From IMG/VR virus record IMGVR_UViG_2582580934_000010: a stretch of 15,672 nt of DNA. One strand, 5' to 3'. The notes beneath the pieces were generated by a model, which worked only from the letters and a program-made list of their open reading frames with translations, was not told where the DNA came from and ran no database searches. Origin of the DNA: a virus. Its lineage: Duplodnaviria; Heunggongvirae; Uroviricota; Caudoviricetes. Position 1 is the first letter of the stretch, and each line of letters starts with the position of its first letter. Position numbers and translations under genes: made by a program. Positions 1,269 to 11,707 of the stretch are shown here, in pieces.

Positions 1269-1691
1269 TTACTCCCTGACAGGGTTCGTAGGCCACTCAA
1301 TATCAGGTGCAGTTGATGTATCAACACGGTTCAGCAACACCCGATACTTTTTCCAGGCTTCCAGCAACAAGGTTTCTTCCTCCGTTGCGATCTCCAGATC
1401 CACAGCATCCTGAAGCGGCGCTATATGCTCACTGGCTACCTGCATCAGGCTGTTTTTTGTTTCTTCCGCCTCACGGATCCGGAACAGTTTTTCTGCTTCC
1501 GTATCCTTCACCCAAGCTGTGCCGTTCCACTTCTGAAACTCCCCTTCCGGGGATAACCAGGTGACATTTTCCGGTAATGAGCCGAGTTCAGAAATAAATA
1601 ACGCGTCGCCGGAAGCCACGTCATAAACCGTTTTACCCCGATGATCTTCAACGAGATGCCACGATGCCTCATCACTGTTGAAAACAGCCAC
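1269..1691 (-). pseudogene. tfaD: Tail fibre assembly protein Tfa, 5'-truncated (tfaD-like); the only in-frame start is a GTG that corresponds to an internal Val of lambda Tfa
   Basis: The 140 aa align with lambda Tfa from ...[18 protein letters not shown] to the C-terminus. Manual translation upstream continues in frame as [37 protein letters not shown] (Tfa-like) and then hits a stop at 1884-1886 without any ATG. Confidence 0.8.
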
Positions 1692-1896: not shown

Positions 1897-4355
<2,459 letters not shown>

Positions 4356-4381
<26 letters not shown>

Positions 4382-4901
4382 TCAGCAACCCCGGTATCAG
4401 TTCATCCAGCGCGGCTGCTTTGTTCATGGCTTTGATGATATCCCGTTTCAGGAAATCAACATGTCGGTTTTCCAGTTCCGGAAAACGCCGCTGCACCGAC
4501 AGGGGGATCCCGTCGAGAATACTGGCAATTTCACCTGCGATCCGCGACAGCACGAAAGTACAGAATGCGGTTTCCACCACTTCAGCGGAGTCTCTGGCAT
4601 TTTTCAGCTCCTGTGCGTCGGCCTGCGCACGCGTAAGTCGATGGCGTTCGTACTCAATAGTCCCTGGCTGGAGATCTGTCTCGCTGGCCTGTCGCAGTTC
4701 TTCAACCTCCCGGCGCAGCTTTTCGTTCTCAATTTCAGCATCCCTTTCGGCATACCATTTTATGACGGCGGCAGAGTCATAAAGCACCTCATTACCCTTC
4801 CCACCGCCTCGCAGAACGGGCATTCCCTGCTCCTGCCAGTTCTGAATGGTACGGATACTCGCGCCGAAAATTTCAGCCAGCTGCTTTTTGTTGACTTCCA
4901 T
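4356..4901 (-). CDS. nohD: Terminase small subunit Nu1
   Basis: 181 aa MEVNKKQLAEIFGASIRTIQNWQEQGMPVLRGGGKGNEVLYD..., lambda Nu1-like with the N-terminal winged-HTH that binds cosB. Confidence 0.95.
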
Positions 4902-5090
4902 TGTTCATTCCACGGACAAAAACAGAGAAAGGAAACGACAGTGGCCAAAAAGCCCGTTTTCAGCACCTGTCGTTTCCTTTCTTTTCAGAGGGTATTTTAA
5001 ATAAAAACATTAAGTTATGACGAAGAAGAACGGAAACGCCTTAAACCGGAAAATTTTCATAAATAGCGAAAACCCGCGAGGTCGCCGCCC
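4902..5090 (-). promoter_or_regulatory. cos: cos site: cosB (Nu1/IHF-binding region) at 4902-5078 and cosN 12-nt cohesive-end sequence at 5079-5090
   Basis: Plus strand 5079-5090 is AGGTCGCCGCCC, the reverse complement of the lambda cohesive end GGGCGGCGACCT. The reverse complement of 4902-5090 reads like the lambda left end (GGGCGGCGACCTCGCGGGTTTTCGCTATTTATGAAAATTTTCCGG...), ending at the Nu1 ATG. Confidence 0.85.
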
Positions 5091-10596: not shown

Positions 10597-10721
10597 TAAC
10601 TTTCTCCACAAAATCAGGCCAGCACACCAATCGCCAGTGCGCGATCGATAAAACGAAATATCAGCTCCAGCTGGGAGCCATACTTCTCTTCAAATGCCAC
10701 GGTATCCACAACAGTAGTAAT

Positions 10722-11213
10722 CTACAGATTGCCGTTAAGTTTTCTGGACAACTCCTCAATGGATGGAGGCGATACGTAATCCGGATTTTTATTCATCAGA
10801 AACTTATTTTCACAGTGGAGGCACCTGCTTTTATGAAAAAGCTCATCTTCGCTAACCGGGAATGGTTGAAGTATCGATACTATCTTTTGTCCAAAACATT
10901 TTGGGCAAAGATGCATGGTTATGCTGCCACCGTTCACGATTACCTCCTTCGAGTATACAAAAGTACCCGACTCAAGTTGGTTAAGGATATAGCCTTCCGT
11001 CTGAGCCTCAAAGTTTTCGAATTCTGCAATTTTAGCTTTGAGAGAAGCATTTATTTCTTGATAAGAGCCCACCAGTTCAACGAGAGACACGCATTCGCGC
11101 TGAATAGACGCAAGCTTTGAGTTCAGCTCACCAATAGCCGCATTTACTTCAGCTTGAGTTTTTGCCTCGTTCATTAGTTTTGCAATCTGGGCTGTTTCAC
11201 GAATAGCCGTCAT
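10722..11213 (-). CDS. Hypothetical protein: N-terminal coiled-coil (~70 aa) plus C-terminal CxxC-x21-CxxC zinc-ribbon-like domain; no family recognised
   Basis: The track ORF (259 aa) begins in low-complexity sequence that reads through the upstream repeats. The plausible start is the ATG at 11211-11213 (163 aa, weak Shine-Dalgarno) or the GTG at 11235-11237 (171 aa, AAGAG 8 nt upstream). Heptad-like N-terminus (AQIAKLMNEAKTQAEVNAAIGELNSKLASIQRE...), then HLCPKCFGQKIV...SRCLHCENKF. Confidence 0.5.
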   Translation of the reverse strand: MTAIRETAQIAKLMNEAKTQAEVNAAIGELNSKLASIQRECVSLVELVGSYQEINASLKAKIAEFENFEAQTEGYILNQLESGTFVYSKEVIVNGGSITMHLCPKCFGQKIVSILQPFPVSEDELFHKSRCLHCENKFLMNKNPDYVSPPSIEELSRKLNGNL

Positions 11214-11251
11214 TGCTGCCGTTAATTCAGCGATCACATTGAATACTCTTA

Positions 11252-11297
11252 TTGTTGTTGGGGATATCCAGATTAACCGAATCCTTGTTGTTGGGGA
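11252..11297. repeat. Two direct copies of TTGTTGTTGGGGA (11252-11264 and 11285-11297), 33 bp apart, immediately upstream of the 10722..11213 gene
   Basis: Exact 13-bp match read from the sequence; on the minus strand the motif is TCCCCAACAACAA. Confidence 0.7.
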
Positions 11298-11379
11298 ATA
11301 ACCAGGTCCACCTCGCCTGATGTGGCTAAAAGCAGGCACATAACAGCTAAGTATTTTCAACCAGAGAGAATCCTTAGCG

Positions 11380-11570
11380 TTGTGGTGAATGCGGCTCAGC
11401 GCACGCGGGTTAAGGTTGAGGCTGACAGTCGACCTTCTGTGGACACCCACCCGCCTGGTGTGCAACCTTCGCCAGGCACCGGGAGGCACCCGGCACCACA
11501 ACTTTATGCTGTGTGTAGTCCTGGCGGTACCAGTTTGTACCCTTGCTTCCGGCTGGTACCGTCCTTTTTT
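11380..11570 (+). ncRNA. Candidate structured RNA or leader element: GC-rich non-coding segment with several potential stems, ending in a terminator (stem CGGTACCAG/CTGGTACCG at 11525-11561 plus CTTTTTT at 11564-11570)
   Basis: No plausible protein in any frame (translations are Pro/Arg-rich). Local GC is clearly higher than in the flanks. Helices include GCGGG/CCCGC, CCTGG/CCAGG and CCGGG/CCCGG, with a terminal hairpin plus U-tract on the plus strand. Confidence 0.25.
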
Positions 11571-11571
11571 G

Positions 11572-11658
11572 CAAAACAGAGAAGAGCATCACCGGACGAC
11601 GGGCTCATAACCCAATCCATCCGGGCGGCTGCCACCGCAGGTGTTCTTCTCTGTTTTG
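11572..11658. repeat. 14-bp perfect inverted repeat CAAAACAGAGAAGA (11572-11585) / TCTTCTCTGTTTTG (11645-11658) bracketing a 59-bp GC-rich spacer, about 50 bp upstream of the yfdP-like start
   Basis: Read directly from the sequence. Confidence 0.7.
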
Positions 11659-11707
11659 TGGAGAAACCAACCGACCTTGCAGGGTCGATATGATGAGGAG
11701 CAGCAAA

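What the first reader, a model, noticed from the sequence alone, without database searches (positions are those of the whole stretch)
10722..11213. Unrecognised coiled-coil plus zinc-ribbon protein in the slot upstream of Q
In lambda and DLP12 the genes immediately upstream of Q are nin-region genes (rusA, ninE, ylcG and the like). Here there is a single 163-171 aa ORF with a heptad-rich N-terminal half and a C-terminal CxxC-x21-CxxC motif that I cannot place in any of those families. Its promoter region carries two 13-bp direct repeats. It could be a small zinc-finger regulator, an anti-repressor, or a single-gene defence or superinfection-exclusion moron.
Basis: partly seen in the sequence, partly recalled or inferred. 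Interest (0 to 1): 0.6.

Follow-up and report, generated by a model that had tools for sequence, protein, structure and literature searches.

The report
Prophage Rip1-type antiphage pore gene
The ORF is a real 171-residue prophage gene of the recently described Rip1 family, single proteins that kill phage-infected cells by forming a membrane pore around phage terminase or portal rings. It lies next to Q only because a 6.8-kb deletion removed the genes that normally separate them.

Summary
The ORF is real (window 10722-11237, minus strand). Its true start is the GTG at 11237, giving 171 aa. It has two long N-terminal helices and a C-terminal four-cysteine domain; the motif is CxxC-x24-CxxC, not x21.

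It belongs to the Rip1 family ("ring interacting pore 1", Patel et al. 2026). A profile of 38 homologs matches HK446 Rip1 (PDB 9oox) at E=6e-20 over the full length, and that structure is the only significant fold match of the AlphaFold model. Rip1 proteins assemble around oligomeric phage small-terminase or portal rings into a membrane pore and abort infection.

The position "upstream of Q" is an artefact. The window is collinear with the intact phage PhiR49_1 except for a 6.8-kb deletion (cI to ydfU). Normally the gene sits in the immunity region, antisense to the early-left (pL) operon, in the slot that sieB occupies in lambda, P22 and Rac.

The two 13-bp repeats are real. They belong to a promoter region homologous to the annotated P22 sieB promoter. 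Its conserved 31-nt upstream block precedes at least 28 unrelated small gene families in phage contigs.

Verdict: a new member of a known kind. The defence-moron reading is supported. The shared promoter block is the more novel lead.

The parts
10722..11237 (-). CDS of the Rip1-family protein, 171 aa, GTG start, stop codon included
   Evidence: ORF list. N-terminus conserved in 38 homologs. PGAP CDS WP_000559922.1. Profile match to PDB 9oox_L at E=6.4e-20.
11001..11237 (-). N-terminal helical half (residues 1-79; helices 2-24 and 28-79). By homology this is the amphipathic pore-forming part.
   Evidence: AF2 model. Hydrophobic moment up to 0.44 and no transmembrane segment, similar to HK446 Rip1 and JBD30 gp30. 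The role is taken from the Rip1 summary in PMC13434031.
10788..10988 (-). C-terminal beta-rich domain (residues 84-150), containing the four-cysteine CxxC-x24-CxxC motif at 10812-10907. By homology this part contacts the phage protein ring.
   Evidence: AF2 strands 84-150. Cysteines invariant and aligned with those of HK446 Rip1.
11246..11250 (-). Shine-Dalgarno sequence AAGAG, 8 nt before the GTG start
   Evidence: Sequence. Conserved as (A/G)AGAG or GAG in relatives.
11252..11264 (-). Direct repeat 2 (TCCCCAACAACAA on the coding strand). Predicted to begin at or next to the transcription start (about 11264-11265).
   Evidence: Repeats. Alignment A5 to the P22 sieB promoter, where the second repeat ACCCCTACAG begins at the annotated sieB RNA start 29727.
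11270..11277 (-). Predicted -10 region (GTTAATCT), homologous to GGATAAACT of the P22 sieB promoter
   Evidence: Alignment A5. P22 promoter feature 29690-29720. The strict consensus scan found no sigma-70 site, so this rests on homology only.
11285..11297 (-). Direct repeat 1 (TCCCCAACAACAA), overlapping the predicted -35 region. It lies in the loop of a possible hairpin GGAUCCU...AGGAUUC.
   Evidence: One pair of the flanking stem shows a compensatory AU to UA change in 3 sequences.
11308..11338 (-). Conserved 31-nt upstream block ('module 1', TGCCTG(T)CTTTTnACCACnTCAGGCTCGGTGG). It corresponds to -75..-41 of the P22 sieB promoter.
   Evidence: Nearly invariant in 19 loci, while sequence further upstream is unrelated. 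Present in lambda, P22, HK620 and HK446. Found in at least 120 IMG/VR contigs ahead of 28 different gene families.
10703..10710 (.). Deletion junction (8-bp overlap TATCCACA), 12-19 bp after the stop codon. It joins the gene to the last ~90 bp of a ydfU/DUF968 gene and to quuD.
   Evidence: blastn of the window against PhiR49_1: window 7359-10710 matches phage 15083-11769 and window 10703-15672 matches phage 4984-15. PGAP annotates a partial DUF968 CDS there.

Best explanation
The ORF encodes a member of the Rip1 ('ring interacting pore 1') family of single-protein, prophage-encoded anti-phage defences.

Proposed mechanism, shown for relatives and inferred here:
1. The protein is made at a low level from its own sieB-type promoter (GTG start) and is harmless on its own.
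2. When another phage infects and reaches late gene expression, a ring-shaped oligomer of that phage (small terminase or portal) is bound by the C-terminal four-cysteine domains.
3. The phage ring templates a Rip1 ring. In the solved complex, 12 Rip1 subunits surround an 11-mer of T6 small terminase.
4. The N-terminal amphipathic helices then form a pore in the inner membrane.
5. The cell is permeabilised before progeny mature, which is abortive infection.

What is shown here: family membership by sequence and fold, invariant cysteines, the helical N-terminal half, the moron-type context, and homology of the promoter to P22 P(sieB).

What is inferred: expression, the trigger, pore formation and protection.

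The gene normally sits in the immunity region, antisense to the early lytic operon. In this defective DLP12-like prophage, a 6.8-kb deletion has placed it next to quuD.
For: Sequence: the profile of 38 homologs hits PDB 9oox_L ('ring interacting pore 1 (Rip1)', 164 aa) at E=6.4e-20 over profile positions 5-156 of 170; the next hit has E=0.11. Pairwise identity is 27-29% over essentially the full length to HK446 Rip1, HK620 HkaP and JBD30 gp30, which are only 27-31% identical to one another.

Fold: the AF2 model has pLDDT 88.7. The only Foldseek PDB hits with E<=1e-3 are 9oox_L and 9oox_M, 'HK446 Rip1 in complex with T6 small terminase', probability 1.00 and TM 0.53-0.73 on the target. The HK446_037 translation equals the PDB chain.

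Conserved features: the four cysteines are invariant. The N-terminal helices are amphipathic with no transmembrane segment, as in the relatives.

Mechanism of the family: PMC13434031 section 5, summarising Patel et al. 2026, Nature 651:1060; also PMC12908700 and PMC13601566.

Context: in seven independent contexts the gene lies antisense to a lytic operon. In PhiR49_1, Citrobacter, Klebsiella, Edwardsiella and Enterobacter prophages and in HK446 and HK620 it lies in the immunity region facing pL. In a Salmonella prophage it faces pR. In JBD30 it lies between the small and large terminase genes, as described for the Pseudomonas Rip1.

Integrity and spread: the window protein is 100% identical to that of plaque-forming ECOR phages PhiR49_1 and PhiR29_1. 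The gene is present in 650 of 5426 complete E. coli genomes. The family has 2653 clusters at 50% identity with E<=1e-3.

Promoter: the upstream region is homologous to the upstream region of HK446 Rip1 and to the annotated P22 sieB promoter.
Against: Identity to any experimentally studied Rip1 is only about 27%. The segment between the two CxxC knuckles and the C-terminal tail (extra helix 160-168) differ from HK446 Rip1, so the trigger, and conceivably the activity, could differ.

No expression, toxicity or protection data exist for this protein. All database names are 'hypothetical'.

PADLOC (2023), Pfam (2025) and NCBIfam have no model that matches, so membership rests on one solved structure and PHROG 1244 (function unknown).

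I could not read the primary paper. The mechanism is taken from a review, a meeting report and PDB titles.

The strict sigma-70 scan finds no promoter upstream. The prophage is defective and has lost its downstream flank.
Confidence: 0.8

Rival explanations
1. It has the Rip1 fold, but in this locus it is silent or does something else. It could be a relic carried by a decaying prophage, or a paralogue that recognises a different oligomeric target or acts other than by pore formation.
For: The prophage is defective, with cI through ydfU deleted and portal and tail genes truncated. Identity to studied Rip1 proteins is only 27%. The inter-knuckle insert and C-terminal tail vary between subgroups. 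No consensus sigma-70 promoter was found.
Against: The ORF is intact and 100% identical to that of active phages. The promoter region is intact and nearly invariant across genera. All family-wide invariant residues are kept. Eleven genomes carry the same deletion junction with the gene unchanged.
Confidence: 0.13
2. It is a small zinc-ribbon regulator: a transcription factor, an anti-repressor, or a DksA/TraR-like RNA-polymerase-binding protein (coiled coil plus C4 zinc finger). On this reading it acts on the phage lysis-lysogeny circuit and the upstream repeats are its operators.
For: The overall shape, a long coiled coil plus a C4 motif, resembles DksA/TraR. Direct repeats overlap the predicted -35 and +1 positions. 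The gene lies in the immunity region.
Against: No Pfam or NCBIfam hit to zf-dskA_traR or to any DNA-binding family. The cysteine spacing is x24 with a beta-rich domain. Apart from Rip1, no structure reaches significance in Foldseek. The same promoter block and the same repeat architecture precede unrelated proteins such as SieB, so the repeats do not belong to this protein in particular.
Confidence: 0.04
3. It is a SieB-like superinfection-exclusion protein that acts as an integral membrane protein to stop macromolecular synthesis, as described for P22 SieB.
For: It occupies the same genomic slot and has a homologous promoter to sieB of P22, lambda and Rac. HK620 hkaP was annotated 'putative superinfection exclusion protein'.
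Against: No match to Pfam SieB PF14163, which the true SieB proteins behind the same block do match. No hydrophobic transmembrane segment: the maximum Kyte-Doolittle 19-residue mean is 0.85. The fold matches Rip1.
Confidence: 0.03

Closest known systems
Rip1 of Escherichia phage HK446 (HK446_037; PDB 9oox, complex with T6 small terminase)
   Same: Similar length (164 vs 171 aa). Same architecture of N-terminal helices plus a C-terminal 2xCxxC beta domain. Full-length homology and a fold match. Same slot, antisense to pL between the early-left genes and N/cI. Same 31-nt upstream block.
   Different: Only 27% identity. HK446 has the CCCCTACAG type of promoter repeat, the window has CCCCAACAACAA. 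The window protein has a longer C-terminal tail with a predicted extra helix and a different insert between the knuckles. Its trigger specificity is unknown.
Pseudomonas aeruginosa prophage Rip1 (JBD30 gp30 / DMS3-type orthologues)
   Same: 29% identity over 153 residues. A single gene antisense to the flanking lytic genes. The family founder is described as lying between the small and large terminase genes.
   Different: It sits in the late (packaging) region of Mu-like phages, not the immunity region. It lacks the enterobacterial promoter block. Pseudomonas phage escapers map to portal, while E. coli phage escapers map to small terminase.
HkaP of phages HK620, HK629 and HK630 (PHROG 1244)
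   Same: 28% identity over the full length. Same slot and same promoter block.
   Different: Untested as far as I could find. It was annotated only as a 'putative superinfection exclusion protein' from its position.
SieB of P22, lambda and Rac
   Same: Same genomic slot, same orientation, homologous promoter region including module 1 and two repeats. Also an abortive-infection type exclusion expressed from the prophage (PMC10883804).
   Different: An unrelated protein: Pfam PF14163, a hydrophobic membrane protein. No sequence or fold similarity to the window protein.

Membership tests
Rip1 (ring interacting pore 1) anti-phage defence | Full-length sequence homology to an experimentally characterised Rip1 | tested here: met
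   Profile against PDB 9oox_L: E=6.4e-20, positions 5-156 of 170. BLASTP 27% identity, E=4e-11. The HK446_037 translation equals the PDB chain.
Rip1 (ring interacting pore 1) anti-phage defence | Fold: N-terminal long helices plus a C-terminal beta-rich domain as in the solved structure | tested here: met
   AF2 pLDDT 88.7. In Foldseek PDB, only 9oox_L and 9oox_M are significant (E=4e-7, probability 1.0, TM on target 0.53-0.73).
Rip1 (ring interacting pore 1) anti-phage defence | Two conserved CxxC pairs in the C-terminal domain | tested here: met
   C111, C114, C139 and C142 are invariant in 38 homologs and align with the cysteines of HK446 Rip1, HkaP and JBD30 gp30. Metal binding itself was not tested.
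Rip1 (ring interacting pore 1) anti-phage defence | Amphipathic N-terminal helix and no transmembrane segment (soluble until triggered) | tested here: met
   Hydrophobic moment up to 0.44 in residues 7-54; maximum Kyte-Doolittle 19-residue mean 0.85. The profiles resemble those of HK446 Rip1 and JBD30 gp30. This is a crude calculation only.
Rip1 (ring interacting pore 1) anti-phage defence | Single-gene system carried by prophages | tested here: met
   No conserved partner gene across seven contexts, all prophage or phage.
Rip1 (ring interacting pore 1) anti-phage defence | Assembles around oligomeric phage small-terminase or portal rings into a pore | not testable with these tools
   Needs co-expression, cryo-EM or liposome assays.
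Rip1 (ring interacting pore 1) anti-phage defence | Protects against phage by abortive infection and is non-toxic alone | not testable with these tools
   No experimental data found for this protein. All source names are 'hypothetical protein'.
SieB superinfection exclusion (Pfam PF14163) | Match to the SieB family model and hydrophobic membrane segments | tested here: not met
   No PF14163 hit for the ORF, while the SieB protein behind the same promoter block scores E=3e-25. No transmembrane segment.
DksA/TraR C4 zinc-finger proteins | Match to zf-dskA_traR (PF01258), with CxxC-x17-CxxC at the end of a coiled coil | tested here: not met
   No Pfam or NCBIfam hit. Spacing is x24 inside a beta domain. 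No DksA-like structure among the fold hits.
nin-region genes upstream of Q (rusA, ninE, ylcG and the like) | Native position between the replication genes and Q, transcribed from pR | tested here: not met
   In the intact relative PhiR49_1 the gene lies between yfdP and cI. rusA, ydfU and Q lie 5-7 kb away, and the adjacency in the window is a deletion junction.

The most novel reading that the evidence does not exclude
The most novel reading concerns the gene's upstream region, not the protein. The 31-nt block TGCCTGTCTTTTnACCACnTCAGGCTCGGTGG, together with the hairpin or repeat unit that follows it, may be a portable and strongly conserved control cassette of the 'sieB slot' of lambdoid phages.

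It precedes at least 28 unrelated small gene families. Only two of them, SieB and Rip1, have a known function, and both are abortive-infection defences. The block would therefore flag a hotspot of mostly uncharacterised, prophage-expressed and probably anti-phage genes.

Its near-invariance, and the compensatory changes in the adjoining hairpin, would then reflect a shared regulatory mechanism. One possibility is an RNA element or an antisense target that silences these toxic genes during the prophage's own lytic growth, as I recall for the sas RNA of P22 sieB. Another is a compact divergent promoter that also drives ral or an STnc100-like sRNA.
Probability: 0.4. Interest if true: 0.65.

Novelty: new member of a known kind. 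Interest (0 to 1): 0.35.

Why it matters
About 12% of complete E. coli genomes, including O157:H7 lineages, carry this gene labelled 'hypothetical protein'. Placing it in the Rip1 family gives it a testable function and predicts which phage proteins it senses, which bears on phage-host range and on phage therapy.

It belongs to a clade only about 27% identical to the solved Rip1. Comparing its variable inter-knuckle insert and tail with HK446 Rip1 could show how trigger specificity is encoded.

The result also corrects a context error. The gene belongs to the immunity-region 'sieB slot', and a deletion mimics nin-region cargo.

The conserved promoter block offers a simple sequence handle for collecting other prophage-expressed genes from the same slot, most of them of unknown function.

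Tried and rejected
**Library searches.** Pfam, NCBIfam and PADLOC scans of the ORF gave only sub-threshold coiled-coil noise.

**Literature searches.**
- 'hkaP' returned only unrelated papers.
- 'JBD30 gp30' gave one structural paper with no function for the gene.
- 'sieB' plus 'sas RNA', and 'sieB' plus hotspot, found nothing usable.
- The primary Rip1 paper is not held.

**A structured 5'-UTR RNA covering the whole 105-nt conserved leader.**
- RNAalifold gave only -8 kcal/mol and no compensatory pairs.
- My hand-drawn four-helix model had 2 pairs with double changes, no better than the slid controls.
- The P22 record places the sieB RNA start downstream of most of this region.
- I therefore dropped the riboswitch-like reading for the window-type leader. 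Whether the hairpin is transcribed stays open.

**A CCAC/GUGG pseudoknot inside module 1.** Targeted scans for CCGC and CCTC variants gave 3 related compensated cases and 3 uncompensated ones. This is inconclusive.

**Which strand carries the hairpin.** A G-U wobble test gave 6 versus 4. This is inconclusive.

**A small peptide encoded in the leader.** The 22-codon ORF in the window is broken by indels in relatives, so I rejected it.

**Other ideas not pursued.** CsrA, GcvB or Hfq binding to the CA-rich repeats was considered from motif resemblance only. I did not pursue it because HK620, HK446, P22 and lambda carry a different repeat (CCCCTACAG) in the same architecture.

Full report
**1. The observation**

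The minus strand carries an ORF ending at 10722. The GTG is the real start, for three reasons:
- The first eight residues (MIAELTAA) are conserved in 38 homologs from many Enterobacterales.
- Most relatives also start at GTG, 7-9 nt after AAGAG/GAGAG.
- PGAP calls the same CDS (WP_000559922.1, 'hypothetical protein').

AlphaFold2 with the 38-sequence alignment gives a confident model (pLDDT 88.7). It has helices 2-24 and 28-79, a beta-rich domain at 84-150 and a short C-terminal helix. The cysteines C111, C114, C139 and C142 are invariant. Their spacing is CxxC-x24-CxxC, not x21. The two exact 13-nt direct repeats exist at 11252-11264 and 11285-11297.

**2. What the protein is**

Pfam, NCBIfam and PADLOC give nothing significant. 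PHROGs gives family 1244, 'unknown function', at E=2e-58.

A profile of the 38 homologs searched against all PDB chains hits one entry far above the noise. It is 9oox_L, 'ring interacting pore 1 (Rip1)', 164 aa, E=6.4e-20, aligned over profile positions 5-156 including both CxxC pairs. The next hit has E=0.11.

Foldseek of the model against the PDB returns 9oox_L and 9oox_M as the only hits with E<=1e-3. The entry title is 'Cryo-EM structure of the Escherichia phage HK446 Rip1 in complex with the Enterobacteria phage T6 small terminase', probability 1.00, TM 0.53-0.73 on the target. The translation of HK446_037 equals the PDB chain.

Pairwise, the window protein is 27-29% identical over nearly the full length to HK446 Rip1, HK620 HkaP and Pseudomonas phage JBD30 gp30. 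These are 27-31% identical to each other. The window protein is therefore as much a member as they are.

The family is large. There are 2653 clusters at 50% identity with E<=1e-3, almost all 145-180 aa and matched end to end. The window gene, at 90% nucleotide identity or more, is in 650 of 5426 complete E. coli genomes. It is annotated 'hypothetical protein' in every record listed.

**3. How the family works (from the literature, not tested here)**

The primary paper is Patel et al. 2026, Nature 651:1060. It is not in the held library. A 2026 review summarises it (PMC13434031) as follows:
- Rip1 is a prophage protein of P. aeruginosa lying between the small and large terminase genes.
- It is not toxic alone.
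- Superinfection turns cells spherical.
- Escapers map to portal in Pseudomonas phages and to small terminase in E. coli phages.
- Cryo-EM shows 12 Rip1 subunits around an 11-mer small-terminase ring.
- The N-terminal part is an amphipathic helix and the C-terminal half contacts the ring.
- The complexes release dye from liposomes and make holes in cells.
- Homologs are widespread in Proteobacteria, mostly in prophages.

A meeting report and a 2026 paper agree with this. The window protein has moderately amphipathic N-terminal helices and no transmembrane segment, like its relatives. I infer the same mechanism with about 0.8 confidence. The trigger is unknown. The most variable parts among close homologs are the insert between the knuckles and the C-terminal tail. 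If the C-terminal half contacts the phage ring, these are candidates for specificity.

**4. Where the gene really belongs**

The window is a DLP12-like defective prophage at tRNA-Arg. Its order is intD, yfdT, yfdS, yfdR, yfdQ and yfdP on one strand, then the ORF, a DUF968 fragment, quuD, a porin gene, lysis genes and terminase.

blastn against the intact phage PhiR49_1 shows collinearity except that phage coordinates 4985-11768 are missing. The junction is window 10703-10710, an 8-bp overlap 12-19 bp after the stop codon. The lost 6.8 kb holds cI, cro, ymfL/M, O, yfdN, a methyltransferase, a LexA-like gene, rusA and most of ydfU. 'Upstream of Q' is therefore a deletion artefact. Eleven complete genomes share this exact junction.

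In PhiR49_1 the gene lies between yfdP (the early-left operon) and cI, antisense to both. The same arrangement holds for more distant homologs:
- Citrobacter (62% identity): xis | gene | cI.
- Klebsiella (49%) and Edwardsiella (45%).
- A Rac-like Enterobacter prophage (53%): recT, recE, ydaE | gene | ... racR-like. This is the slot that I recall sieB holding in Rac.
- HK620 and HK446: between cIII and N.
- A Salmonella homolog (75%) sits just after cro, antisense to pR.
- JBD30 gp30 sits antisense between the terminase genes.

The common theme is a single gene with its own promoter embedded antisense in a lytic operon.

**5. The upstream region and the repeats**

About 105 nt upstream of the start are nearly invariant in 19 loci from about ten genera, although the proteins are only 45-75% identical. 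Conservation begins abruptly at TGCCTG(T)CTTTT, and sequence further upstream is unrelated.

The first 31 nt ('module 1', window 11338 down to 11308) are identical or nearly so upstream of four other genes: HK620 hkaP, HK446 Rip1, lambda sieB (J02459 34396-34430) and P22 sieB (BK000583 29652-29686).

The P22 record annotates the sieB promoter at 29690-29720 and the sieB RNA start at 29727. Module 1 is therefore at -75..-41. In P22, lambda, HK620 and HK446 a 10-nt repeat ACCCCTACAG occurs twice, over the -35 region and starting at +1.

Alignment A5 puts the window's two TCCCCAACAACAA repeats at the same two places. It also aligns the window's GTTAATCT (11277-11270) with P22's -10 region. By homology the transcript should start near 11265, leaving a leader of about 27 nt. 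The strict sigma-70 scan finds no site, so this rests on homology to an annotated promoter.

**6. A wider pattern**

The first ORF downstream was Rip1-like in only 10 of 113 cases. In all, 28 unrelated protein families follow the block.

One of them is true SieB (Pfam PF14163, E=3e-25). The others that I scanned match only PHROGs of unknown function or nothing, and none matches PADLOC convincingly.

Two architectures exist:
- Class A has about 100-105 nt from the block to the start codon and two repeats. It includes sieB, the Rip1 types and a few others.
- Class B has 63-72 nt and a single inverted repeat followed directly by the Shine-Dalgarno sequence. Annotated examples (Rac-SA53 rac10, SfII gene 36) are again in the slot between the early-left genes and the repressor.

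The inverted repeat keeps its complementarity through at least eight different stem sequences, among them TGCTGG/CCAGCA, TACTGG/CCAGTA, TTCTTGG/CCAAGAA, TCCTTTTA/TAAAAGGA and TCCTCT/GGAGGA. Native stems of 5 bp or more occur in 97% of sequences, against 59% of chimeras. That argues for selection on pairing. A wobble-pair test could not tell which strand is folded.

This is in tension with a transcription start downstream of the hairpin position in P22, and I leave it unresolved. Candidate roles for module 1:
- An upstream element of the rightward promoter.
- A compact divergent promoter, which would also drive ral in lambda and P22 and the sRNA-like gene here.
- Part of an RNA that controls these genes. 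From memory only, P22 sieB is controlled by an antisense RNA, sas (Ranade and Poteete 1993). I could not check this.

**7. Comparison and verdict**

The protein meets every Rip1 criterion that can be tested in silico: homology, fold, cysteines, amphipathic N-terminus, single-gene prophage context. It fails the tests for SieB, for DksA/TraR and for nin-region cargo.

It is a new, divergent and very common member of a family described in 2026. Its regulator and anti-repressor options, and the nin-region framing, were not.

I score interest as modest for the protein itself. The conserved promoter block shared by at least 28 cargo families is the part that could lead somewhere new.

Noticed in passing
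window 11308-11338 (minus strand); loci L033-L152, L153-L157: The 31-nt block upstream of the ORF is shared with lambda and P22 sieB and with HK446 and HK620 Rip1-type genes. In at least 120 IMG/VR contigs it precedes 28 unrelated small protein families, and only SieB and Rip1 have a known function. It looks like a marker of a cargo hotspot (the 'sieB slot') in lambdoid phages.
   Followed up: partly
loci L033-L157, directly after the block (class B leaders): An inverted repeat between the block and the Shine-Dalgarno sequence keeps its complementarity through at least eight different stem sequences. In some variants the Shine-Dalgarno sequence lies inside the 3' arm. Which strand folds, and whether the region is transcribed, is unresolved. 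It conflicts with the P22-annotated RNA start if that start is the only one.
   Followed up: partly
window 11349-11572, plus strand: A sub-threshold but full-length match to the prophage sRNA family STnc100 (RF02076; 40.2 bits against a gathering score of 47; E=2.5e-7). It ends in a GGCGGUACCAG...CUGGUACCGUC hairpin followed by CUUUUUUG, a terminator-like end. It starts 11 nt beyond the conserved block and points away from the ORF. PGAP annotates a 'frameshifted hypothetical protein' over it (11382-11693). The stretch is conserved in a Citrobacter prophage next to xis (L009 4640-4840).
   Followed up: partly
window 11572-11658: A long inverted repeat (24-nt arms, 83% complementary, 39 nt apart), preceded on the minus strand by a terminator-like hairpin at 11689-11660. 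The 201-nt minus-strand RNA folds at -77 kcal/mol (z = -3.9). Its function is unknown.
   Followed up: no
window 10611-10722: After the deletion, the ORF and quuD are co-oriented and only about 110 bp apart, with two weak terminator-like hairpins between them (10680-10662 and 10637-10619). Read-through from the moron promoter could feed the Q antiterminator in this repressor-less prophage.
   Followed up: no
window 10703-10710: The 6.8-kb deletion (cI through ydfU) has an 8-bp overlap, TATCCACA, at its junction. Eleven complete E. coli genomes from pigs, humans, a panda and wastewater share exactly this junction.
   Followed up: partly
window 1312-1510, minus strand: A full-length Rfam match to the sRNA IS009 (RF02111, 221.6 bits) in the tail-fibre remnant region of the prophage.
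   Followed up: no
PhiR49_1 (PV340568) 4237-4965; protein P0003: Public records over-extend this gene's start (242-aa and 186-aa versions) into the promoter region. The conserved N-terminus shows that the 171-aa GTG start is right.
   Followed up: yes
alignment A1, columns about 130-186: Close homologs fall into several discrete variants of the insert between the two CxxC knuckles and of the C-terminal tail, while the N-terminal helices stay similar. This modular variation could reflect different phage triggers.
   Followed up: no
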